From a virus (taxonomy: Duplodnaviria > Caudoviricetes), in IMG/VR virus record IMGVR_UViG_3300044825_001111, positions 1-50,963 of that record: DNA of 50,963 nucleotides. One strand, given 5' to 3'. A program made the translations under genes and the position numbers. Under the pieces are notes generated by a model, which searched no databases, was not told the origin of the DNA, and was given only the letters and a program-made list of their open reading frames with translations. Shown piece by piece: positions 8,754-29,179 of this stretch. Numbering within the stretch: position 1 is the first letter of the stretch; the number at the start of each line of letters is the position of its first letter.

Positions 8754-9086
8754 ATGGAAACGATGCACTCCAGGCTGCGCGCGGCCCGCCTCAGCGCGGG
8801 GTTCAAGCCTGCAAAGGGCGCTGCCGAAAGGCACGGCTGGCCTGTCTCGACATACTCGGCACATGAAAACGGCCAGAACGATTACGGGCCGGAAGTCGCT
8901 GAAAACTATGCCAAAGCCTTTAGAACAAGCGCGAAATGGCTGTTGCTTGGCGGCGATTTAGTGGCTGATGAAGTCGCAGAGGTGGCGGCAGACCTGCGCG
9001 AACTCCCGGAAGCCGAGTCGCGGGCGATCTTGGCGGAACTTCGGACCATGATTAAGACGGCCAAGATGCTCGGAAAGGCTCGTTAA
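8754..9086 (+). CDS. CI-like XRE repressor, short, without S24 peptidase domain
   Basis: RLRAARLSAG...AAERHGWPVSTYSAHENG...AKAFRTSAKWLLLG; 110 aa. Confidence 0.85.
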   Translation: METMHSRLRAARLSAGFKPAKGAAERHGWPVSTYSAHENGQNDYGPEVAENYAKAFRTSAKWLLLGGDLVADEVAEVAADLRELPEAESRAILAELRTMIKTAKMLGKAR

Positions 9087-9114
9087 ATCGGCCACATATA
9101 TTCTTTGCTCATTC

Positions 9115-9158
9115 CTTACACAATTCATGTTGACATAAAGCGTGTAAGAGATTAGGTT
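9115..9158 (+). promoter_or_regulatory. pL-like sigma70 promoter with operators
   Basis: TTGACA (9130-9135)-17 nt-TAGGTT (9153-9158); overlaps AGCGTGTAAG, the same half-site as at pR, plus CTTACAC upstream. Confidence 0.75.
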
Positions 9159-9185
9159 CGGACCATCCACTCAGGAGATGCGCCG

Positions 9186-9407
9186 ATGCCTGCAAACCCC
9201 CGCCCCTGGACCTACCGCAAGACCTACGTCGGGTCGTCCCCGTTTCTGACGATCAGCGACGCGAACGGCCAGCCGTTCGCCTATCTCACGCTTTGGCCTG
9301 AGAACGTCGAGGCAAACGCCCGGCTGATCTGCGAGGCGGTGAACGCTGCACCGGTTGAGACGGTGACGGGTTTCAATCTGACCACCGAGCCGAGCGAGGT
9401 GGCGTGA
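9186..9407 (+). CDS. Hypothetical protein
   Basis: AGGAG RBS; PRPW...EANARLI..A motif common in phage early proteins. Confidence 0.75.
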   Translation: MPANPRPWTYRKTYVGSSPFLTISDANGQPFAYLTLWPENVEANARLICEAVNAAPVETVTGFNLTTEPSEVA

Positions 9408-9591
9408 TGATTAGTCGGATAATTATCGTCGGCCCGAACAATCAATTCCCGCGCCTCAGCGGTGAAGCCCACACGGCGAGGGCATGTTCGCCGAGCCCCA
9501 GGAGTGTCCAAGCAGAAACTGCAAACCCTAGCTCAGTCACACATGGCGGCCGGCTTCCTCAGTACAGGCCGGCCGCCGATCGGGGGCGGGG

Positions 9592-9771
9592 ATGAAGCAG
9601 CTCTTTGCGCTTTTCTTGGCCTGGCCCGGCGGCAGCGAATACCTCGTCGCCACGGACCTCACGATTGAGCAATGCGCGGGAAGGGCGGCGATGGAGCGGA
9701 TGGCCGACGAGAGGTGGTCCGTCCGCTGCGAGCCGCAACGGAAGGTGTTTCGGGTGGTGAGGAGGAAATGA
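9592..9771 (+). CDS. Small hypothetical protein (59 aa)
   Basis: MKQLFALFLAWPGGSEY...QC...RCEP; ATGA overlap with next gene. Confidence 0.55.
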   Translation: MKQLFALFLAWPGGSEYLVATDLTIEQCAGRAAMERMADERWSVRCEPQRKVFRVVRRK

Positions 9772-10160
9772 GAACCCCCACACCCCACGTCGACCTTTAC
9801 GGCTGGTGGATGGTCGCCCTCGGCGGCGGCGATCCCGAGACGACCCACGAAGTTCAATGTGGCTGGTTTAAGCGCCGACTGGTGAAGGGCGGGCCGTGGG
9901 TGCCGGCACGGATCTGGATGGATCAGCCGGTCGACGAACTGGGCGAACTCTGCGGCGACGAAACCCTGCAATGCGAGGTCGCTGGCCGCTGGGCCGATCC
10001 CGAGGACGCCTGGACCTGGCTCTGCGCCAATCCGATCAGTGAGCAAGAGTTCAAGTATCTGACCGCGCTTGCCGAGCATTGCGAGCGGCACGAGCCGGAC
10101 CATCCGGCGGCCAATCCGCGCAAAGCCATCGACCATTTGTCAACGCCTCTGCATTTCTGA
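9768..10160 (+). CDS. Conserved phage hypothetical protein
   Basis: GGAGG RBS; QCGWFKRRLVKGGPWVPARIW. Confidence 0.75.
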   Translation: MRTPTPHVDLYGWWMVALGGGDPETTHEVQCGWFKRRLVKGGPWVPARIWMDQPVDELGELCGDETLQCEVAGRWADPEDAWTWLCANPISEQEFKYLTALAEHCERHEPDHPAANPRKAIDHLSTPLHF

Positions 10161-10171
10161 AAGGAACCACC

Positions 10172-10957
10172 ATGTCGCTTGCCGAAGACCTGCGCGGCCA
10201 CAACCTGCCGCCCCCTGACCTGCTCACCGGCGATGCCCTGCGCGCCAAGCTGCAGGCCGACCACGAGGCCTTGCTGAAACGCCGCGACGAATTGCTCGCG
10301 GCCGAGGCGCGGATCCCGGCGATCGATAACGAGGACGCCGCCCGCAAATGCTCGGATTTCATCAAGCAGATCACGGCCGCCGCCAAGACGGCAGACACCG
10401 CTAGGGTCGGCGCCAAGGAGCCCTACCTGGAAGGCGGGCGCGGGATTGATGGGTTTTTCCGCGCAATCAGCGATCCGCTCACCGATCTCAAGAAGAAGGT
10501 CGAGCGCAAGCTCACCGACTACCTGCGCCAGAAAGAGGCCGAAGAGCGTGAACGCCGCCAGCGCGAAGAGCGGGAAGCCCGCGAGCGGGCCGAACAGGCC
10601 CGCAGGGAAGCCGAAGCCGCCGCCCAGGCCATGCGCGACGCCGCCAGCCTCGACGAAGCGGTGCAGGCCGAGAAGGCCGCCGATGCCGCCGCCGCTGATG
10701 TGGTGAAGGCCGAAGCCGCCGCCACCGCCAAGCCCGCCGAACTGTCGCGGACCCGCGGCGAGTATGGCGCAGTCTCGAGCCTCAGAACCGAATGGGTTTT
10801 CGAAGGCGTCGACCGCGCGACGATCGACCTTGAGACGCTTCGCCCCTACCTGCCGGTCGACGGCATCGAGAAGGCGATCCGATCCTTCATCCGCGCCGGT
10901 GGCCGCGAGCTGCGCGGCACCCGGATCTACGAAACCACAAACGCAGTCGTGAGGTAA
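10172..10957 (+). CDS. Coiled-coil phage protein of the recombination module
   Basis: GHNLPP start, long E/R/A-rich helix, RELRGTRIYE end; upstream of RecT. Confidence 0.75.
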   Translation: MSLAEDLRGHNLPPPDLLTGDALRAKLQADHEALLKRRDELLAAEARIPAIDNEDAARKCSDFIKQITAAAKTADTARVGAKEPYLEGGRGIDGFFRAISDPLTDLKKKVERKLTDYLRQKEAEERERRQREEREARERAEQARREAEAAAQAMRDAASLDEAVQAEKAADAAAADVVKAEAAATAKPAELSRTRGEYGAVSSLRTEWVFEGVDRATIDLETLRPYLPVDGIEKAIRSFIRAGGRELRGTRIYETTNAVVR

Positions 10958-10960
10958 GCC

Positions 10961-12001
10961 ATGAACGAAGTCGCCACGAAAGCCCCGAACCCGCTGGTCG
11001 CTTTGCACGACCAGATGGAACGCCGAACCGGCCAGTTCGCCGCCGCCCTGCCCGCTCACATTCCCGCCGAGAGGTTCAAGCGGGTGCTGCTGACCGCGGT
11101 CCAGAATAACCCGACGTTGGCCACCGCTGACCGGCAGACCTTCTTCAACAGCGCGATGAAGGCGGCCCAGGACGGACTTCTGCCGGACGGCCGCGAAGGC
11201 GCGATGGTGATCTACAAGACCAAGGTCAAAGAGGGCAACCGCGAGTTCTGGGTCGACGCCGTCCAATGGATGCCCATGATCGGCGGGATCCGCAAGAAGG
11301 TCCGCAACTCGGGCGAGATCGAGACATGGGACGCCCATTGCGTCTACGAGAACGACGCCTTCGAGTTCGAGCTCGGCGACAGCCCCTACATCAAGCACAA
11401 GCCCGCACTGAGCGGCGACCGCGGCAAGATCATCGCCGCCTATTCGGTGGCGACTTTGAAGAGCGGCGAGAAGTCCCGCGAGGTCATGTCGATCGACGAG
11501 ATCATGGCGGTCTGGCGGAAGTCGTCGAAGCAGAAGGACAAGGAAGGGAACCCGAGCGGCCCCTGGAAGGACCACCTCGGCGAAATGTGTCGCAAGACGG
11601 TCGCGCGCCGGCACTCCAAGGTGCTGCCGATGTCGACCGATCTGGACGACCTGCTGCGCCGGGACGATGACCTGTACGACATGGAAGGCGCCAGCGACAA
11701 GGCATTGCCGCCGTCTGCGAAGCGCCCGCAGATCAGCGACTTTGCCGAACTGCCACAGAACCCGGTGATGACCGAGGATCCGAAGGCGCCGAAGCCCGAA
11801 CCCGCCGCCGAGAAGGTCGACGAGGAAACCGGCGAGATCACCGAGGTCGGCGTTCCCGAGGCGATGGAGCTGGGCCGCCAGCGTCGCAAGGACAATCGGC
11901 CCAGGCGCCCGATCGACGGGCTGACCGAAGCCGAGGCCTCGGCATTTCTGCAGGGCTGGGACAGCGAAGACGATCTCATACAGCAGGCCGCGAAACGTTG
12001 A
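10961..12001 (+). CDS. recT: RecT-family single-strand annealing protein
   Basis: ALPAHIPAERFKR...AAQDGLLPDGRE...GPWKDHLGEMCRKTVARR. Confidence 0.9.
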   Translation: MNEVATKAPNPLVALHDQMERRTGQFAAALPAHIPAERFKRVLLTAVQNNPTLATADRQTFFNSAMKAAQDGLLPDGREGAMVIYKTKVKEGNREFWVDAVQWMPMIGGIRKKVRNSGEIETWDAHCVYENDAFEFELGDSPYIKHKPALSGDRGKIIAAYSVATLKSGEKSREVMSIDEIMAVWRKSSKQKDKEGNPSGPWKDHLGEMCRKTVARRHSKVLPMSTDLDDLLRRDDDLYDMEGASDKALPPSAKRPQISDFAELPQNPVMTEDPKAPKPEPAAEKVDEETGEITEVGVPEAMELGRQRRKDNRPRRPIDGLTEAEASAFLQGWDSEDDLIQQAAKR

Positions 12002-12033
12002 ACGTGCATAAGCAAACCAGACAGGAGAACGAA

Positions 12034-12786
12034 ATGGCTAAGAACGAAACGACTGCGACACTCCACATCGACCCGCTCAAGCAGGGCCGCGTCAAGATGC
12101 GGATCATTGGCTCCACGCCGATGTTCTTCAACGCGATGAGCGCCAAGGCGAAGCGATCGCTGCTGCTTGGCGGCGGCAAGAAGACTGCGGCCGAGAAGAA
12201 GGAGATCAAGCATGATCCCGAGGCCGAGTTCCGCGACAGCACCTATCGGTCGCAGTCAGGCCCGACGCTGCTGGTGTTCCCGGCGCCCGGCATCAAGAAT
12301 GCGATGGCGACCGCCGCACTCGTCACCGACGGCGTGAAGAAAACCGACGTGCAGCGGCTGATCTTCTTGCCGCAGGAAAAGGTATCGATCTGGGGTCGGC
12401 CGTACCTGCGGATGGACGTGGTTCGCAGCGCCGACATGAACAAAACGCCAGACGTTCGGACGCGCGCTTTCCTGCCGCGCTGGTGCGCCGAGGTGGACTT
12501 CGCCTTTGTGACGCCGAGCCTGTCGGTTCACTCGATCGCCTCGCTGCTGGCGAACGCCGGGCTGGTGTCGGGGATCGGCGACTTCCGGCAGGAAAAGGGC
12601 AAAGGCAGCTATGGAACCTTCCGCATTGTCTCGGACGAGGACGACGAAGCGCTCTGGAAGGAACTAACCGAAAGCGAAGGGCGCGAGTGCCAAGAGGCGG
12701 CGATGGCCGATCCTCATGCGTTTGATTCCGAAACGCAGGAACTGTGGGCGATGCTTCGTCAGGAGCGGATGCGCAGGGCGGCGTGA
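12034..12786 (+). CDS. Stand-alone Cas7/RAMP-like protein (putative Vipr-type RNA-binding effector)
   Basis: RAMP-like layout: N-terminal strand IIGSTPMFF, helix FPAPGIKNAM, C-terminal Gly-rich loop AGLVSGIGDFRQEKGKGSYGTFRI; AGGAG RBS; array follows directly. Confidence 0.75.
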   Translation: MAKNETTATLHIDPLKQGRVKMRIIGSTPMFFNAMSAKAKRSLLLGGGKKTAAEKKEIKHDPEAEFRDSTYRSQSGPTLLVFPAPGIKNAMATAALVTDGVKKTDVQRLIFLPQEKVSIWGRPYLRMDVVRSADMNKTPDVRTRAFLPRWCAEVDFAFVTPSLSVHSIASLLANAGLVSGIGDFRQEKGKGSYGTFRIVSDEDDEALWKELTESEGRECQEAAMADPHAFDSETQELWAMLRQERMRRAA

Positions 12787-12790
12787 TGAG

Positions 12791-13370
12791 CTTGGTCGAG
12801 GTGAGGCACGGCCGGTCGAGATCTGGATGGGCGCGGTCAGGCATGGCGGTCGGCGTTAGGAACGGCGGGGTGTGTCCCGCAGAGTTATGGCTTGGCGGTC
12901 GGGGCACGGTTCGGCACGGCGGCGCGGGTCATGGAATGGCGGTCCTGGAGAGGCTGGTTCTGGTCAGGCGCTGCACGTCCGGTCAAGGCGGTCGAGGACG
13001 GACAGGCCCGGCAGGGACCGGCCGGATTGGTCACGGCACGGGTCAGGCGGTCGCGGTTTGGCCTCGCGCTTCGGGGCTGGGTGAGTTGAGGTGCGGCGAG
13101 GTCTGGCGGTCCTGGTCGGGCCGGGCCTGCAGCGGAGAGGCGCGACATGGCGAGTCGCGTTCAGTTCCGGCTGGGCGGTCAAGGTACGTCGTGGCTGTGT
13201 TTGGCGTGGTGGCGAATGGTCTGGCGACGCAAGGCGGTCGAGGACTGGCATCGCGTGGACTGGCAGGGTTTGGCGCGGGCTGGCGGTCATGAAGGGGAAT
13301 GTTCTGGCGCGGCCCGGAGTGTCGCGGCGGTCAAGGCAAGCATGGAAACGGAACGGCTTGGATAGGACAG
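12791..13370 (+). repeat. GGY-NN pentamer array of about 11 units delimited by GGCGGTC (putative guide ncRNA array)
   Basis: GGCGGTC at 12845, 12894, 12938, 12987, 13046, 13105, 13174, 13233, 13282, 13326; spacings 49,44,49,59,59,69,59,49,44 (all 5n+4); interiors show 5-nt periodic GGY-like triplets alternating with variable dinucleotides. Confidence 0.9.
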
Positions 13371-13373
13371 ACA

Positions 13374-13901
13374 ATGGCGAAGTTTGACAGAACTTACCGA
13401 CAAAAGATCGTCGACGAATACCTCAACGCGACGGGCGAGAACACTTTCGTGCCCGCCGCTTTCATCGACTGGCTGCGCGATCAGCCAGACCATCGGGCTT
13501 ATCCGATCTTCTTCTCCAAATCCGACGAGGACGCGGCTGCAGAATACCGGATCAACCTGGCCCGGCAGTTCGTCAGCGGCTTGCGGGTGAAGATCCGCAT
13601 GACCGCGACGACGATCGACGAGGGCGGGCGCGAGGTGAAGGTGACGGAGAGCGCGGTGACCGCGGTGCGGGTGCCGGCCTTCTATTCACCACTGAGCGAG
13701 CGAAAGGGCGGCGGCGGTTATCACGCCTTCGACTCCGAGGATCCTGCGGCGTTGCGCGAGCTGCGCCGGCAGGCGGCGACCGATCTTCGCCGGTTCATCC
13801 ACCGGCACGAGGGCATCGCCAAGTTGAGCGGGATCTCGCTCGAAGCAATCAAGGTCATTGCTGCAGCGTTTGACGCACTCGACGTCAGCGAGGCGGCGTG
13901 A
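13374..13901 (+). CDS. Accessory protein flanking the array
   Basis: MAKFDRTYRQKIVDEYL...PDH...DEDAAAEYRINLARQFVSGLRV; starts immediately after the last array unit. Confidence 0.8.
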   Translation: MAKFDRTYRQKIVDEYLNATGENTFVPAAFIDWLRDQPDHRAYPIFFSKSDEDAAAEYRINLARQFVSGLRVKIRMTATTIDEGGREVKVTESAVTAVRVPAFYSPLSERKGGGGYHAFDSEDPAALRELRRQAATDLRRFIHRHEGIAKLSGISLEAIKVIAAAFDALDVSEAA

Positions 13902-13984
13902 TGGTCACGGCGGTCATGCCCCGGATGGGTAAGGTGCGGAACGGCGTATCTCGGAATGAACTGGAAGCGGCAAAGGAGGCCACC

Positions 13985-14131
13985 ATGGCGAAAGAGGCAA
14001 CGTCGAAGCGGGTCGCGCGCATCGCGGCGAAGGTGCTCAAGCAGAAGGATCTGTTCGGGCCGGACATCCTGGCGCTGGCGGCGAGCTGCCTGACCCAGCG
14101 CGAGCCGAAGAAGAAGCCAGCCAAGAAGTAG
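13985..14131 (+). CDS. Small basic protein
   Basis: AGGAGG RBS; MAKEATSKRVARIAAKVL...LAASCLTQR. Confidence 0.7.
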   Translation: MAKEATSKRVARIAAKVLKQKDLFGPDILALAASCLTQREPKKKPAKK

Positions 14132-14165
14132 TGCAGTGCAGTAACCCCAACAGGAGAATGAACCG

Positions 14166-14369
14166 ATGAAGTATCTACTTGCAGCAATCGCGATCGCGGC
14201 CATTACGACCCAGTCGCCGGCCTTCGACAAGCCCGCCTATGAAGCCGCGAAGCAGCAATGGAAGTCGGACAAGGCCGACTGGAAGGTCGCCGAGGAAGCC
14301 TGGAAGGCGGACGGCAAGCCGGACCCGAAGCCTGCGAAGCCCGCGAAGCCGGACCGCTCGCTCTACTAA
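14166..14369 (+). CDS. Small secreted protein
   Basis: Signal peptide MKYLLAAIAIAAITTQSPA; W-K heptads; KPAKP tail; AGGAG RBS. Confidence 0.75.
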   Translation: MKYLLAAIAIAAITTQSPAFDKPAYEAAKQQWKSDKADWKVAEEAWKADGKPDPKPAKPAKPDRSLY

Positions 14370-14436
14370 CCCAGCGCGGCGGCGATCGGGTCACGGAATC
14401 CGGTCGCCGCGCACGATCAACACTGAGGGCAAGACG

Positions 14437-14688
14437 ATGACCGAGGAAGAAGCAAAGACGAAGTGGTGCCCGCATGTGCGGTACTCTTGGAGACAAGACC
14501 CGTCATCAAACAGATGGTCGCAATCAGCGACAGAAGGCGATCCCTCCACGACTGCATTCAATCCCGTTGCCTGCCGCTGCATCGGCTCTGAGTGCATGGC
14601 GTGGCGGTGGATTGAGGTCATGTTTCGAGACGCCATTGATAGCAGCAAGGCGCCAGAAGGCTACTGCGGACTGGCAGGCAAGCCATGA
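14437..14688 (+). CDS. Cys-rich phage hypothetical protein
   Basis: MTEEEAKTKWCP...CIGSECMAWRW...GYCGLAGKP. Confidence 0.8.
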   Translation: MTEEEAKTKWCPHVRYSWRQDPSSNRWSQSATEGDPSTTAFNPVACRCIGSECMAWRWIEVMFRDAIDSSKAPEGYCGLAGKP

Positions 14689-14885
14689 CCGACCTCTGCT
14701 TCACCAGCGACGCGGACTCTCTGATCTACGCGGCGATCCTTTTCGTGGTCGGCTGCTGCGGCGTGTACCTGCTCTGGCTGGCGAAGCAGCCTCTGCCATC
14801 GGTGCCGCCCGAGCGGACCGAGCTCGACTCCGACGACCCGCGCATCACGAGAATTTACCAAGGCAACAGAAAGACGGAGATCTAA
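14685..14885 (+). CDS. Small membrane protein
   Basis: One hydrophobic helix; ATGA overlap. Confidence 0.6.
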   Translation: MTDLCFTSDADSLIYAAILFVVGCCGVYLLWLAKQPLPSVPPERTELDSDDPRITRIYQGNRKTEI

Positions 14886-14887
14886 CC

Positions 14888-15175
14888 ATGTCGACAATTT
14901 TGGAAGCAATGAAGACCATCACCGCCGTCGAGGGCAGGATCCGCGACGGGATCGCAGCCACGGCGCAGGAGCGCGACACGATCCTGGGCGCGATGGACGC
15001 CGAGGCCACGAAGCTGACGCAGGACGTCCTCGAACTGCTCAAGGCCTACCAGATGAGGCTCGGCGAGCTGCGGGCAGACCTGCAGAAATCTTACGACGCC
15101 CAGATCCGGGCTGCGGAAGAGGCGATCGGAGCCACCCCCGCGCCGGCGCCGAAGATCGCACTGGCGGCTGAGTAG
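14888..15175 (+). CDS. Hypothetical coiled-coil protein
   Basis: GGAG RBS; MSTILEAMKTI... Confidence 0.7.
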   Translation: MSTILEAMKTITAVEGRIRDGIAATAQERDTILGAMDAEATKLTQDVLELLKAYQMRLGELRADLQKSYDAQIRAAEEAIGATPAPAPKIALAAE

Positions 15176-15177
15176 CC

Positions 15178-15423
15178 ATGAAGCTGAACAAGGAAGGCGT
15201 GGAGAAGGCTGCGGACGTAAGAAGTAGGCGTTTATTTGGTGCCCCGCTGCAAGACCTTTCCGAAGACGCACAACAAGTGATCACCGGCCTAGTCTCAGAC
15301 GAACTCACAGCATACTTCGATCATCTCCGGCAGGCGGGATTGATGAGGGTTTCCGATGTCAAAGGACGAAACTCGGATGAGGTCGTGGCCCGCCGCATCA
15401 TCATCCGCGCGGACGAGGAGTAG
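15178..15423 (+). CDS. Hypothetical protein
   Basis: 81 aa, tightly packed in operon. Confidence 0.6.
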   Translation: MKLNKEGVEKAADVRSRRLFGAPLQDLSEDAQQVITGLVSDELTAYFDHLRQAGLMRVSDVKGRNSDEVVARRIIIRADEE

Positions 15424-15428
15424 AGCGC

Positions 15429-16064
15429 ATGACCGAGAAGCCGATCTTGTTTTCCGGCCCGATGGTGAAGGCCATCCTCGACGGCCGCAAGACCATGACG
15501 CGGCGGGTGTTGAAGCCGCAGCCGATCTGGAGCGATGGCGGCTCGATCAATGACGGCGGCGGACAGATGGACTACATCGAACCGCATTGGGCGCGAGAGC
15601 CAAAGCTTGCCTACGCCCCCGGCGACCTGCTGTGGGTGCGCGAGACGTGGGCAGAGGCTTGTGAACTGGATGAGAACGACAAGCCCGCAACGGACATGAG
15701 GACATACTATCGCGCCGATGGAGAGCCGTTTTCCCGCTATCTCGATCCTGACACCGATGAATGGCGCGAAGGGATCAAATGGCGGCCCTCCATTTTCATG
15801 CCCCGGTGGGCTTCCCGCATCAGCCTGCGCGTGACCGCCGTGAAGGTCGAGAGGTTGCAGGACATCAGCGAGGACGACGCAAAGGCGGAAGGCATCTTTC
15901 AAACGAAAGCGGGGTCGTGGAGCGCGGTAGAAGATTACTCACCGCTTGCCGGAACATCGCCAGTCGGCGGCTTCTATTGCCTGTGGACCGCCATCAACGG
16001 CGAGGGCGCCTGGGACGCTAACCCCTGGGTGATGGCCGTGTCGTTTGAAAGGGTGAAACCGTAA
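15429..16064 (+). CDS. ASCH/PUA-like phage protein
   Basis: PILFSGPMVKAILDGRKTMTRR...GDLLWVRETW...WRPSIFMPRWASRI...NPWV. Confidence 0.85.
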   Translation: MTEKPILFSGPMVKAILDGRKTMTRRVLKPQPIWSDGGSINDGGGQMDYIEPHWAREPKLAYAPGDLLWVRETWAEACELDENDKPATDMRTYYRADGEPFSRYLDPDTDEWREGIKWRPSIFMPRWASRISLRVTAVKVERLQDISEDDAKAEGIFQTKAGSWSAVEDYSPLAGTSPVGGFYCLWTAINGEGAWDANPWVMAVSFERVKP

Positions 16065-18438: not shown

Positions 18439-18718
18439 CGAGCCAATTCAAACTGTCCCGCCGATAGTTGATAACGTCGATTATGTCGCGGCGCATCTTG
18501 ATGTCATGGGCATGGAAGGTGCTGCCCGTTTGATCCGCCGCCTGCGGGATGAACGGGATCAGGCGAGAGCAGCACTGGCCCGGTTCGCAGACGCCAGCAG
18601 AAGTTATGCGGGTGGCGACTTTTCTGGCGATGACTACTGCGACGAAATGCAGACAATCAAGGTCGGCCACCTCCGCACCGCCGCCCGCGTCCATGCTGAG
18701 ACAGGAGAGAAGGGATGA
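18428..18718 (+). CDS. Hypothetical protein
   Basis: GGAGG RBS; MTNDEPIQT... Confidence 0.65.
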   Translation: MTNDEPIQTVPPIVDNVDYVAAHLDVMGMEGAARLIRRLRDERDQARAALARFADASRSYAGGDFSGDDYCDEMQTIKVGHLRTAARVHAETGEKG

Positions 18719-19323
18719 ACACCCGCCTGATCGGAGCCGTCGCCCTTATAGCCATTGCCTTTGGTGGTGGCATGACTGCCCGCCCCTATCTGGCCGCCCC
18801 ATTCAAGGAACACTCCCAAGCCGTCAGCGTCCGCGTAAGCCAGCAAGAGGGCCTGACCGCCCCCGTCGACTTGGTGATGTTCGGGGATAGCCTGACCGAT
18901 CAGGGCCGCTGGGACGAGCTGCTAGGCCTCAAGGTGGCGAACCGCGGCGTGGGCGGCGACACGGTCAAGATGGCTGCGCAGCGGGTTCACACCCTGCCAC
19001 CTGGCCCGGTTTACATCATGCTCGGCATCAATGACCTGAACTGGCTCCAGCGACCCCACGATCGTGTCCTGGCGGATTACGACGCGCTGCTCGCCAGCCT
19101 CAAGGGCCGCAAGATCGTGGTGCAATCGGTGCTCGGGCCGGAAGGTCTTGGGCTCCCGGAATTCAATGCCTCACTCAAGGCCCTGGCCGAGCGGCACGGC
19201 GCTGACTTTCTCGATCTCACTCCGCAGCTGGGATACCCGCTGAAACCCACCTATGACGGCATTCATCTGACCGGCGATGGATACCGCCTGTGGGCGAAGC
19301 AAATCTCAGGCAGCCTCCTTTAA
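18715..19323 (+). CDS. Exported SGNH/GDSL hydrolase (esterase)
   Basis: N-terminal hydrophobic segment; FGDSLT, NRGVGG, GIND, DGIH blocks. Confidence 0.9.
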   Translation: MNTRLIGAVALIAIAFGGGMTARPYLAAPFKEHSQAVSVRVSQQEGLTAPVDLVMFGDSLTDQGRWDELLGLKVANRGVGGDTVKMAAQRVHTLPPGPVYIMLGINDLNWLQRPHDRVLADYDALLASLKGRKIVVQSVLGPEGLGLPEFNASLKALAERHGADFLDLTPQLGYPLKPTYDGIHLTGDGYRLWAKQISGSLL

Positions 19324-27952: not shown

Positions 27953-28627
27953 TCACTTGCCTCCGAAGAACACAGCCGCGATGCCGGCTAGAAGGGCGCC
28001 GACGATCCAGAACATGACCTCGCCGATCGAGCGCTTGGCGCTGATGGGCTCCGGTGGCGGGCTGGGCAGCGGCGGAACGGTCGGCGCGACATCGGGCTGC
28101 GACGGGTTGATCGAAGCCATAGACAGCGCCTTGGAGCGCACGCCGTCGACGCGGCGGGTCCAGCCTTTGCCGAACGTGTCCCAGGTGCTGAGGTCTTCCA
28201 GGAACTTCATGCGGCGGTCGCAGAGCTTGGCAATGACGCCCTCCGCGGGCTTGGCCGCCGCTGTGGCAATTGTCACATTGCCCATGAGGCCGTCGACGGC
28301 AACGCCGAGCACTTCCTGCAGATGCTCGATTGCCCGACGCGGCCCTGAATTGACCGCATAGTCGAACACCGCATAGTCGAGGCCAGATGGCAGGTTGTCG
28401 GCGCGAACCGCCATCCAGTATTGCTGATAGTAGATTGCCTCGATCTCGGCGTCGCTGATGCGCGCCACCGACTGTTGATCCTTGCCGGCATTCCGGCGGT
28501 AAGCGTCATAGACGCGCTGCGTGACGCCGCGCATGGTGGCGCCGCCGGGATCCCGCGGGTGATTGGAAAAGCCGCCCTCGTGGACAAGGACGGCCGCCAG
28601 CGATGATTTGAAGTTGGCCTTCATCAC
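27953..28627 (-). CDS. Endolysin, glycoside hydrolase family 108, with C-terminal TM helix
   Basis: HEGGFSNHPRDPGGATMRGVT, FDYAVNSG, FGKGWTRR. Confidence 0.92.
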   Translation of the reverse strand: MMKANFKSSLAAVLVHEGGFSNHPRDPGGATMRGVTQRVYDAYRRNAGKDQQSVARISDAEIEAIYYQQYWMAVRADNLPSGLDYAVFDYAVNSGPRRAIEHLQEVLGVAVDGLMGNVTIATAAAKPAEGVIAKLCDRRMKFLEDLSTWDTFGKGWTRRVDGVRSKALSMASINPSQPDVAPTVPPLPSPPPEPISAKRSIGEVMFWIVGALLAGIAAVFFGGK

Positions 28628-29004
28628 ATACCTCTCGGCTCAAAGATGCAGTAGTAGCCGCGGCGCGGGTCCGACGAGACGGTGTCGCCCATCAGGCAAA
28701 TGTGCCACAGGTTGTCTTCGCTCGGCTGCAGGCGGGCGTAGTCAATGAACTCGTCGAAGCCCGTCCGGCGGTTGTAGTTGATCGCCTGCGCCTGCTCTGG
28801 CGTGAGCGTCACGCGAATGCCGCGCGGGTCCGAGAAGTCGATGAACCGGACATCGAGCGGCGCGCAGTCTGAGCCGCCGCAGCATGACGTCATCTTCCCG
28901 AAGATCGGGTCGCGCTTCTGGCTGTACCAGCTATGAGCCCAGACAACCGGCGCCAGAAACACGAAAGCCGCCACGAGGGCGGCCACGGCGAGCAGATGGC
29001 GCAT
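28624..29004 (-). CDS. Secreted Cys-containing protein
   Basis: Signal peptide, AHSWY...CCGGSDC...HIC...YCIF. Confidence 0.75.
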   Translation of the reverse strand: MRHLLAVAALVAAFVFLAPVVWAHSWYSQKRDPIFGKMTSCCGGSDCAPLDVRFIDFSDPRGIRVTLTPEQAQAINYNRRTGFDEFIDYARLQPSEDNLWHICLMGDTVSSDPRRGYYCIFEPRGM

Positions 29005-29008
29005 GGGA

Positions 29009-29179
29009 CTAGACCGGCGGTGCGGACGAGAAGAGGCCGGCGATCCATGCCCAGATTGCGGCGCCGAGAGCGACCAGGGCGGCCATGCCCTTCTTCCAGT
29101 CCATGCCGGTCGGGGTCATTGCGCTGTACATGAAGATCGCCGCGAGGGCGACAAGCACGCCGATAAGAATGTAGCTCAT
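29009..29179 (-). CDS. Small two-TM membrane protein
   Basis: MSYILIGVLVALAAIFMYS...ALVALGAAIWAWIAG. Confidence 0.65.
   Translation of the reverse strand: MSYILIGVLVALAAIFMYSAMTPTGMDWKKGMAALVALGAAIWAWIAGLFSSAPPV

What the first reader, a model, noticed from the sequence alone, without database searches (positions are those of the whole stretch)
12791..13370. Array grammar: GGCGGTC delimiters at strict 5n+4 spacing enclosing variable dinucleotides
Ten exact GGCGGTC motifs (12845 to 13326) plus a degenerate one at about 12791 are spaced 54,49,44,49,59,59,69,59,49,44 nt. Units parse as NN-triplet pentamers, e.g. 13112: ct GGT cg GGC cg GGC ct GCA gc GGA ga GGC gc GAC at GGC ga GTC gc GTT ca GTT cc GGC tg. 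Triplets are mostly GGC/GGT/GGA, while every unit has a different NN string of 8-13 dinucleotides. The unit at 12994 has a compensated 1-nt slip. This looks like a multi-guide cassette with processing sites, not a slippage microsatellite.
Basis: seen in the sequence. Interest (0 to 1): 0.88.

Follow-up and report, generated by a model that had tools for sequence, protein, structure and literature searches.

The report
Phage VIPR guide-RNA array (staggered type)
The repeat tract is a phage-encoded array of about eleven VIPR guide RNAs, lying between the gene for their RNA-binding protein and its partner gene; this kind of RNA-guided gene-silencing system was first described in 2026, so the find is real and of a known kind.

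Summary
Ten exact GGCGGTC lie on the + strand with gaps all equal to 4 mod 5, the tract has a strong 5-nt period, and the NN positions are near-random while the GGY positions are constrained.

The tract (12791-13373) lies between a 262-aa gene (11998-12786) and a 175-aa gene (13374-13901). The 262-aa protein has a Cas7/Csm3-like RAMP fold. It aligns with the phage SUSP1 Vipr protein over the G-loop, and the GG-binding residues are kept. The same gene pair and array recur in about 110 related loci.

This matches VIPR (Viral Interference Programmable Repeat), described in 2026 bioRxiv preprints: one Vipr protomer binds each GGY/NN pentamer, and the NN dinucleotides read double-stranded DNA while skipping every third base. 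The 5n+4 rule fits the published "staggered array" layout, in which each boundary is one repeat that is a base short (GGC-N).

In relatives, guides match terminase and capsid genes of other phages only under the 1-nt-skip rule, with the skipped base at the codon wobble position. No target was found for this window's own guides, and no RNA data exist.

Verdict: new member of a known kind.

The parts
11998..12786 (+). vipr gene: 262-aa RAMP-fold protein. The start is TTG 11998, or ATG 12034 where many homologues begin to align.
   Evidence: ORF. PHROG phrog_4652, no Pfam match. AlphaFold2 model pLDDT 70.6, pTM 0.70. Foldseek top hits are Csm3/Cas7 chains, E 1.5e-4, prob 0.99. hhalign against SUSP1 Vipr gives prob 88.9%, E 2.4e-6 over 51 columns. 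R156, D195, F196 and R197 are invariant in 24 homologues and align with SUSP1 R138, D177, W178 and R179.
12791..13373 (+). Staggered vrRNA array: 11 units of GGY-NN pentamers. It is intercistronic and on the same strand as both flanking genes.
   Evidence: No Rfam family. No excess folding, z = -0.24. No terminator-like site on the + strand between the two genes.
12791..12844 (+). Unit 1, with a degenerate start CTTGGTC; 10 NN.
12845..12893 (+). Unit 2, 9 NN.
12894..12937 (+). Unit 3, 8 NN.
12938..12986 (+). Unit 4, 9 NN.
12987..13045 (+). Unit 5, 11 pentamer lengths, with two -1 and two +1 register slips inside.
13046..13104 (+). Unit 6, 11 NN. Shared with close relative L002, which has NN changes and a two-pentamer insertion.
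13105..13173 (+). Unit 7, 13 NN. Shared with L002 apart from one NN change.
13174..13232 (+). Unit 8, 11 NN. Shared with L002 apart from two NN changes.
13233..13281 (+). Unit 9, 9 NN.
13282..13325 (+). Unit 10, 8 NN.
13326..13373 (+). Unit 11, about 9 NN. It has no closing junction and runs into the ribosome-binding region of the next gene.
13374..13901 (+). Candidate vap (vipr-accessory) gene, 175 aa, fold without a known relative.
   Evidence: A homologue lies next to vipr or the array in 76 of 80 viral loci. AlphaFold2 model pLDDT 81.2. Best Foldseek PDB E-value 0.75. No PDB sequence match or PADLOC match of note.

Best explanation
The tract is a VIPR (Viral Interference Programmable Repeat) guide-RNA array of the 'staggered' layout, carried by a phage that probably infects an alphaproteobacterium. 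It is most likely transcribed with the flanking operon (inferred). Each unit gives one vrRNA made of 8-13 GGY-NN pentamers. Vipr protomers (gene 11998-12786) bind one pentamer each. They hold the two G and the pyrimidine with the thumb and G-loop residues, and expose the NN dinucleotides. The string of NN dinucleotides then pairs with double-stranded DNA while skipping every third base, usually the codon wobble base, and the bound filament silences transcription of genes of competing phages or other mobile elements. The binding and silencing steps are taken from the SUSP1 experiments in the papers and were not tested on this locus. Unit boundaries are single repeats that are one base short (GGC-G, followed by GTC-NN), which gives the 5n+4 spacing. 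I infer that this register break ends one Vipr filament and starts the next, and so sets the guide ends. The 175-aa downstream gene is the accessory partner (vap); its role is unknown.
For: Array grammar: GGY is conserved and NN is near-random, both in the window and in 398 unique units (3215 pentamers) of the family, where entropy is 1.93 and 1.99 bits against 0.32, 0.98 and 1.32 bits, and the Y position is C 53%, T 40%, A 6%, G 1%.

Protein: RAMP fold with Csm3/Cas7 as best structural matches. A profile match to SUSP1 Vipr over the G-loop, with the published GG-binding residues conserved.

Linkage: vipr, the array and the 175-aa gene occur together in 76 of 80 viral loci and in prophage-like loci, mostly of Alphaproteobacteria.

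Spacing rule: 381 of 459 GGCGGTY gaps in viral loci and 61 of 80 in bacterial loci are 4 mod 5. Distant relatives use other junctions (GGCAGGC, GGCAGTC, GGCTGGC) and keep the same rule, for example 8 of 8 gaps in L110. This fits the '1 nt overlapping' staggered arrays of the paper.

Targeting in the clade: of 370 guides scanned against 1.75 million positions, 4 reach E<1e-3 under the 1-nt skip. The counts are 0 under 0-nt skip, 0 under 2-nt skip, and 1 and 0 in two shuffled sets. The best matches are 21 of 22 in a small-terminase gene and 16 of 16 in a major-head gene, both in frame with the skip at the wobble base.

Codon signature: NN dinucleotide usage tracks sense codon positions 1-2 of the window's genes (r 0.76) and no other register (r at most 0.34).

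Turnover: against a relative whose Vipr is 96% identical, 3 units are shared with NN changes and the rest are replaced.

No self-target stands above background.

Mechanism as published.
Against: No RNA evidence exists for this locus; expression, unit ends and binding to Vipr are all inferred.

No convincing natural target was found for the window's guides. Of the 11 guides, 9 were scanned locally and 5 in public collections, with these results:
- Five full-length exact patterns in IMG/VR gave 0 hits.
- Two metagenome scans gave 0 hits.
- A 10-NN sub-pattern gave 4 hits in unrelated genes that share a common LRRLADAI(E/D)A-type peptide and match only 20-22 of 26 bases.
- One 23-of-26 match was found in a sensor-kinase gene among 401 genomes.

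The clade-level enrichment rests on 4 of 370 guides hitting 3 distinct targets, and one shuffled guide also reached E<1e-3.

The window's array is more degenerate than the family average: the two G positions are G in 88% and 71% of pentamers against 96% and 79%, and A at the Y position is 18% against 6%. One unit also has four slips.

Similarity to SUSP1 Vipr covers only 51 columns, and the Foldseek TM-scores are low at 0.25-0.35.

The paper states that staggered arrays were not confirmed by small-RNA sequencing. I could not see its supplementary figures.
Confidence: 0.9

Rival explanations
1. The G-rich period-5 RNA is bound by the RAMP protein but acts as a scaffold, sponge or decoy and not as a set of guides. 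It might, for example, titrate a rival phage's Vipr, so that the NN strings carry no targeting information.
For: No target was found for the window's guides. The array is more degenerate than the family average. The abstract of a third preprint reports standalone vrRNAs that redirect a rival's VIPR to decoy sites.
Against: NN usage across the family looks like sense codon positions 1-2, which a pure scaffold would not need. Relatives' guides match phage packaging and head genes in frame. The locus carries its own intact vipr and partner gene.
Confidence: 0.05
2. The tract works at the DNA level. Candidates are an array of sites for a DNA enzyme or binding protein (Chi-like sites against RecBCD/AddAB, primase sites containing GTC, origin iterons), or a run of two-layer G-quadruplexes.
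For: The motif is strand-specific, G-rich and repeated. It lies next to an exonuclease-RecT module. From my own knowledge, not from any call here: GGTC resembles T7-type primase sites, and Chi sites are short G-rich words.
Against: RecT lies next to the array in only 1 of 80 loci, whereas vipr and the 175-aa gene are constant partners. The junction word changes in distant relatives while the 5n+4 rule and the GGY/NN grammar stay. Neither a host-specific Chi word nor a primase site explains that. G-quadruplexes need no strict 5-nt period and no pyrimidine after GG.
Confidence: 0.03
3. The tract is a slippage-generated pentanucleotide microsatellite or other non-functional repeat.
For: It has a 5-nt period.
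Against: Units share only GGY, and NN is near maximal entropy. Tandem Repeats Finder finds no array. The tract keeps its place and grammar in about 110 loci whose Vipr proteins are only 41-96% identical.
Confidence: 0.01

Closest known systems
VIPR systems with staggered vrRNA arrays (bioRxiv 10.64898/2026.04.26.720920, fig. S18; I saw the legend only)
   Same: It is phage-borne, with vipr plus one accessory gene. The guides are GGY/NN pentamers. Adjacent guides are offset by one base, so that the end of one marks the start of the next, which is what the 5n+4 spacing shows.
   Different: I could not see the figure, the type tree or the data tables. Which of the seven types this clade belongs to, and whether the example shown uses GGCGGTC, therefore remain open. 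The paper says this layout was not confirmed by small-RNA sequencing.
Type II VIPR of Escherichia phage SUSP1 (KT454805.2), the characterised system
   Same: The Vipr G-loop motif is GVGDWR in SUSP1 and GIGDFR here, with the thumb arginine conserved. GGY is spaced every 5 nt. The operon has two genes flanked by arrays.
   Different: In SUSP1, runs of about 10-12 repeats are each followed by 46-62 nt without GGY at 5-nt spacing (the published tail with a pseudoknot), and there are no one-base-short junctions. Here there is no tail, and units touch each other. Vipr is 262 aa against 195 aa. Guides are shorter: 5-15 NN with a mode of 8 in the family, against the published 9-16. Protein similarity is limited to 51 columns.
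Class 1 CRISPR backbone proteins (Cas7, Csm3, Cmr4) with crRNA
   Same: The RAMP fold gives the best structural matches. The papers report the same mode of RNA binding, with one protomer per repeat and a thumb that flips bases periodically.
   Different: The period is 5 nt and not 6. The guide is made of dinucleotides within sequence-constrained repeats, not a free spacer between long repeats. I saw no CRISPR repeats and no cas genes among the neighbours examined, and no CRISPR RNA family in Rfam.
TRAP bound to (G/U)AG repeats in the Bacillus trp leader (recalled, not from a call)
   Same: An RNA made of conserved triplets separated by two variable bases, with one triplet read by each protein subunit.
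   Different: TRAP is a closed ring of fixed size and regulates attenuation. Here unit lengths vary, the protein has a RAMP fold, and the variable bases carry the information. This is a resemblance only.

Membership tests
VIPR | A Vipr protein with RAMP architecture (RRM core, glycine-rich loop, thumb) encoded outside a CRISPR context | tested here: met
   AlphaFold2 model. The eleven Foldseek hits with E<=1e-3 are all Csm3/Cas7-type chains, best E 1.5e-4. The G-loop lies at 188-207, between helix 177-190 and strand 208-210. No cas genes among the neighbours examined.
VIPR | Residues that hold the GGY bases in SUSP1 Vipr (R138, D177, W178, R179) | tested here: met
   They align with R156, D195, F196 and R197, which are all invariant in 24 homologues. 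W is replaced by F, another aromatic residue. H17, K33 and E71/M72 could not be aligned.
VIPR | Tandem YNNGG (GGY/NN) repeats, at least four units, in the intergenic DNA flanking vipr | tested here: met
   Eleven units of 8-13 pentamers start 5 nt after the vipr stop codon. The criterion comes from the paper's methods.
VIPR | GGY conserved and NN hypervariable | tested here: met
   Window: 1.86 and 1.97 bits against 0.70, 1.28 and 1.48 bits. Family: 1.93 and 1.99 bits against 0.32, 0.98 and 1.32 bits over 3215 pentamers.
VIPR | An accessory gene (vap) in the same small operon | tested here: inconclusive
   A 175-aa gene is a conserved partner in 76 of 80 loci. It has no detectable relative, and I had no sequences of vap1-6 for comparison.
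VIPR | vrRNAs are expressed as discrete small RNAs that co-purify with Vipr | not testable with these tools
   No RNA run holds the tract, and the contigs laid do not cover it.
VIPR | NN strings match natural DNA targets under the 1-nt-skip rule, with the skip at the codon wobble base | tested here: inconclusive
   Met for the clade: 4 of 370 guides reach E<1e-3 under the 1-nt skip, against 0, 0, 1 and 0 in the controls, and the matches are in frame in terminase and head genes. Not met for the window's own guides, for which no convincing target was found.
VIPR | No self-targeting | tested here: met
   Within the window, the best matches of the 9 parsed guides are at background level under all skip rules.
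VIPR type II (SUSP1-like) | Each vrRNA ends in an invariable 3' tail of about 40 nt with a pseudoknot | tested here: not met
   Units abut and only a 7-nt junction word is shared. Folding shows no excess structure, z = -0.24. SUSP1 shows 46-62-nt gaps after each repeat run.
VIPR with ribozyme-interspersed arrays | Hammerhead ribozymes between guides | tested here: not met
   Rfam scan of 12000-14200 at E<=1 gave no ribozyme, only one chance lncRNA match outside the array.
VIPR staggered arrays | Adjacent vrRNAs offset or overlapping by 1 nt | tested here: met
   All 10 gaps in the window are 5n+4. So are 381 of 459 and 61 of 80 gaps in relatives. The same rule holds with other junction words. 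The definition comes from the legend of fig. S18; I did not see the figure.
CRISPR array | Direct repeats of about 23-50 nt alternating with free spacers, with cas genes nearby | tested here: not met
   The only shared word is 7 nt. No Rfam CRISPR family. No cas genes among the neighbours examined.

The most novel reading that the evidence does not exclude
In this Vipr clade, guide boundaries are written neither by a structured handle nor by a ribozyme. They are written by a single repeat that is one base short (GGC-N before G[G/T]C). This break in the 5-nt register would end one Vipr filament and seed the next, so that protein phasing alone punctuates a long transcript into guides. In addition, the guides of the clade are overwhelmingly sense-strand and codon-phased. 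That would point to an unknown route by which new units are copied from coding DNA or mRNA of rivals. The clade, with its 262-aa Vipr and a partner gene of unknown fold, may also be a type or subtype that the published seven-type scheme does not describe.
Probability: 0.3. Interest if true: 0.65.

Novelty: new member of a known kind. Interest (0 to 1): 0.42.

Why it matters
VIPR is a newly described way of reading DNA with RNA. A protein filament exposes dinucleotides of a repeat RNA, and these pair with DNA while skipping wobble bases. The authors propose it as older than CRISPR.

This window adds a complete 51-kb phage genome carrying the least characterised layout, the staggered array, which the authors did not confirm by RNA sequencing. 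The comparison made here yields testable rules for that layout:
- The 5n+4 spacing holds in roughly 83% of gaps across about 110 loci.
- The junction is one four-base repeat whose sequence can change while the rule stays.
- Guides hold 5-15 dinucleotides.
- Units turn over between phages whose Vipr is 96% identical.
- The natural targets found in relatives are terminase and capsid genes of other VIPR-bearing phages.

The first-stage reading from raw sequence also reached the right kind of explanation unaided.

Tried and rejected
I considered this because RecT lies two genes upstream. I dropped it because RecT is next to the array in only 1 of 80 loci.
- **DNA-level and other RNA readings.** A Chi-like or primase-site array, G-quadruplexes, a TRAP-like ring binder and an SD-like ribosome track were considered from memory. 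All were set aside once the RAMP protein and the VIPR papers were found.
- **Repeat, RNA-family, promoter and literature scans.** Tandem Repeats Finder found nothing. Rfam gave nothing relevant. No sigma-70-like promoter lies in 9000-15500. A literature search for the word GGCGGTC returned only primer lists.
- **RNA evidence.** No RNA holder is listed. The contigs of four runs do not cover the array.
- **Targets of the window's guides.**
  - Local scan of the 9 parsed units gave background only.
  - Five full-length exact patterns in IMG/VR gave 0 hits.
  - Two sub-patterns of unit 7 gave 4 hits, judged chance, and 0 hits.
  - Two metagenome scans gave 0 hits.
  - Five genomes holding prophage relatives gave 0 hits.
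  - Among 401 genomes of the class, with up to 3 mismatches, there was 1 hit in a sensor-kinase gene, judged probably chance.
  - These collection scans take exact patterns only, so targets with a few mismatches would be missed.
- **The vap candidate.** No structural or sequence relative was found.
- **Pfam.** None of 24 Vipr homologues has a match at E<=0.05.
- **No other YNNGG array in the window.** Only isolated runs of 3 occur outside the tract, at background level.

Full report
**Observation.**
The region 12787-13373 is intergenic. It lies between a + strand ORF ending at 12786 and a + strand ORF whose likely start (MAKF...) is at 13374.

Ten exact GGCGGTC lie on the + strand between 12845 and 13326, with gaps 49,44,49,59,59,69,59,49,44. 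A degenerate copy at 12791 adds a first gap of 54. All ten gaps equal 4 mod 5.

Identity at lags 5, 10, 15 and 20 is 0.39-0.43, against 0.22-0.35 at the other lags up to 23. Beyond that the peak drifts to 5n+4, as the one-base shift at each boundary predicts. The tract is 45% G and 23% C.

Parsed as NN plus triplet, the 89 pentamers between exact motifs have 1.86 and 1.97 bits at the N positions. The triplet positions have 0.70, 1.28 and 1.48 bits. With the first unit included, GGC, GGT and GGA make up 62 of 99 triplets.

The unit at 12987 has two -1 and two +1 slips, not a single compensated slip. Tandem Repeats Finder and Rfam report nothing in the tract.

**Context and conservation.**
The window is a complete viral record of 50,963 bases. 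The upstream genes are an exonuclease (10079-10954), RecT (PF03837, 10961-11998) and a 262-aa protein of PHROG 4652 with no Pfam family.

A search of IMG/VR with the 262-aa protein found 252 relatives, of which 80 loci were kept.
- Nearly all have a G-rich period-5 tract beside the gene, and in most of them GGCGGTC or GGCGGTT is the commonest 7-mer.
- Among gaps of up to 130 nt between successive GGCGGTY on the gene's strand, 381 of 459 are 4 mod 5. A further 46 are 3 mod 5, as expected when one junction is missed. The opposite strand has only 2 such gaps.
- The 175-aa downstream gene has a homologue in 76 of 80 loci, either after the array (as here) or directly after the 262-aa gene with the array behind it. 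RecT is present in only 1 of 80.

A scan of bacterial and archaeal genomes found 31 more loci. Most are in Alphaproteobacteria: Rhodobacteraceae, Hyphomonadaceae, Sphingomonadaceae, Methylobacterium and Aureimonas. There, 61 of 80 gaps are 4 mod 5.

**Identification.**
A profile of 24 homologues (alignment A1) gave a weak PDB match to 'SUSP1 Vipr protein' at the glycine-rich loop. That match led to four 2026 bioRxiv preprints.

What I read of each:
- 10.64898/2026.04.26.720920: outline, the whole Results and Discussion, Methods sections 18, 20 and 27, and figure-legend passages.
- 10.64898/2026.04.26.720927: abstract and sections 5 and 6.
- 10.64898/2026.10.15.759431: abstract and outline only.
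- 10.64898/2026.10.21.760802: passages found by term.

The papers describe VIPR systems as follows.
- A small RAMP protein (Vipr) and an accessory gene (vap) are flanked by arrays of vrRNAs built of 9-16 YNNGG repeats.
- GGY is held by the protein. The NN dinucleotides pair with double-stranded DNA while skipping one base per repeat, usually the wobble base.
- The complex silences transcription of competing phages and satellites.
- There are seven types and several array layouts. [quoted passage not shown] Only the ribozyme and single-guide layouts were confirmed by small-RNA sequencing.

**Tests of membership.**
- The AlphaFold2 model of the 262-aa protein (pLDDT 70.6, pTM 0.70) has Csm3/Cas7 chains as its best Foldseek matches (E 1.5e-4, probability 0.99, TM 0.25-0.35).
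- I fetched the SUSP1 record (KT454805.2) and found its vipr at 28474-29061 on the minus strand. hhalign of A1 against it gives probability 88.9% and E 2.4e-6 over 51 columns that cover the last core strands, helix 2 and the G-loop.
- In that alignment SUSP1 R138, D177, W178 and R179, the residues that hold the two guanines and the pyrimidine, correspond to R156, D195, F196 and R197. All four are invariant in the 24 homologues.
- Family-wide, 398 unique units (3215 pentamers) show entropies of 1.93 and 1.99 bits at NN against 0.32, 0.98 and 1.32 bits at GGY. The third triplet base is C 53%, T 40%, A 6%, G 1%.

**Anatomy of the boundaries.**
The window's junction can be read as GGC-G followed by GTC-NN. 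That is one repeat with a single N, followed by a regular repeat whose second G is T, as in 15% of family pentamers.

Relatives whose Vipr is 41-53% identical use GGCAGGC, GGCAGTC or GGCTGGC. They keep the rule: 8 of 8 gaps in L110, 5 of 5 in L099, 5 of 5 in L096 and 6 of 7 in L098. The general junction is therefore GGC-N-G[G/T]C, and the one-base-short repeat explains the 5n+4 spacing. This fits the legend of fig. S18, but I did not see the figure.

SUSP1 differs. Each run of GGY at 5-nt spacing is followed by 46-62 nt without it, which is the published tail, and no short junctions occur. The window's tract folds no better than shuffles (z = -0.24). It has no hammerhead, and no terminator-like site lies on the + strand between the two genes. 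It is therefore probably part of the operon transcript; this is inferred.

**Function tests.**
I parsed guides automatically as GGCGGTY pairs with 5n+4 gaps. I then scanned them, both strands, against the window plus all fetched loci (1.75 million positions), under skip rules of 0, 1 and 2 bases and with shuffled NN order.

Of 370 guides, 4 reach E<1e-3 under the 1-nt skip. The other counts are 0 (0-nt skip), 0 (2-nt skip), and 1 and 0 (two shuffles) (an earlier, smaller run is).

The hits are:
- L059 and L058, matching 21 and 20 of 22 bases in a small-terminase gene of L016 and six other loci.
- L064, matching 16 of 16 in a major-head gene.
- L083, matching 17 of 18 on the antisense strand of a phage gene of unknown function.
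- A weaker hit from L088, matching 15 of 16 (E 0.007) in a large-terminase gene.

Where the reading frame is clear, the skipped base is the third codon base.

Across the family, the 16 NN frequencies correlate with sense codon positions 1-2 of the window's long genes (r 0.76, KL 0.065 bits). They do not correlate with other registers or with the antisense strand (r at most 0.34).

**The window's own guides.**
No self-target stands above background and there is no significant hit in the local set. Of the 11 units, 9 were scanned locally and 5 in public collections.
- Exact NNx patterns for five units found nothing in IMG/VR.
- Two patterns found nothing in the metagenome collection.
- The first ten NN of unit 7 hit four unrelated genes that share a peptide of the form LRRLADAI(E/D)A. 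Only 20-22 of 26 bases match over the full guide, which I judge to be chance.
- Among 401 genomes of the class, one match of 23 of 26, in frame, lies in a sensor-kinase gene. I also regard this as probably chance.

These scans accept no mismatches, or at most three, so real targets may have been missed.

**Turnover.**
In L002, whose Vipr is 96% identical, units 6, 7 and 8 of the window recur with a few NN changes and one insertion of two pentamers. The other units and the leader differ. Units are thus gained, lost or replaced faster than the protein changes.

**Not shown.**
No sequencing run on record as RNA holds the tract, and the contigs of four runs do not cover it. Expression, processing and binding therefore remain inferred. 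The 175-aa partner protein has a confident model (pLDDT 81.2) but no structural or sequence relative.

**Verdict.**
The element is a VIPR vrRNA array of the staggered layout beside its vipr gene and a candidate vap gene. It is a new member of a kind first described in 2026, so the interest is moderate. The points that go beyond what I could read in the papers are:
- the family-wide 5n+4 statistics;
- the general one-base-short junction;
- the sense-codon signature of the guides;
- the terminase and capsid targets among related VIPR-bearing phages.

Noticed in passing
L016:1544-8511 compared with window 10079-13901: The vipr-array-vap cassette sits at different places in related phages. In L016 it lies between the large terminase gene and the head genes; in the window it lies after exonuclease-RecT. 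It behaves like a movable cassette.
   Followed up: partly
window 11961-13974: One contig of coded run X4 joins 11961 to 13974 with 38 other letters between. This would be a relative that lacks vipr, the array and vap exactly. Only 27 letters lie on the shorter side, so it is a weak hint.
   Followed up: no
L006:3846 and L006:5329-5466; also L010, L011, L012: Some relatives carry GGCGGTC-punctuated units both upstream of vipr and downstream of vap, that is, two arrays per locus.
   Followed up: no
L088 and L089 (one Sphingobium MAG contig): One bacterial contig holds two Vipr loci about 34 kb apart. A guide from another locus (L083) matches 17 of 18 bases in a phage gene beside the second one.
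   Followed up: partly
L053:4001-4780: The vipr homologue of this 52.8-kb viral contig has an in-frame stop codon, and its array signal is weak (period-5 score 0.095, G 29%). It may be a decaying locus or a recoded one.
   Followed up: no
family-wide, 398 units: The first and last NN of a unit are biased towards A. The second base is A in 48% of both, so the junction context is roughly AA-GGC-G-GTC-RA-GG. The end repeats may belong to a handle and not to the guide.
   Followed up: no
window 18715-19320: A GDSL-type lipase/acylhydrolase domain protein (PF13472) with weak tail-fibre PHROG matches. It is possibly a tail-associated esterase.
   Followed up: no
L117:1501-1538 (genome G239): Unit 7 of the window matches 23 of 26 NN bases, in frame, at the start of the PAS region of a chromosomal sensor histidine kinase gene. 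I judge this to be chance, though host decoy sites are described for VIPR in the abstract of 10.64898/2026.10.15.759431.
   Followed up: partly
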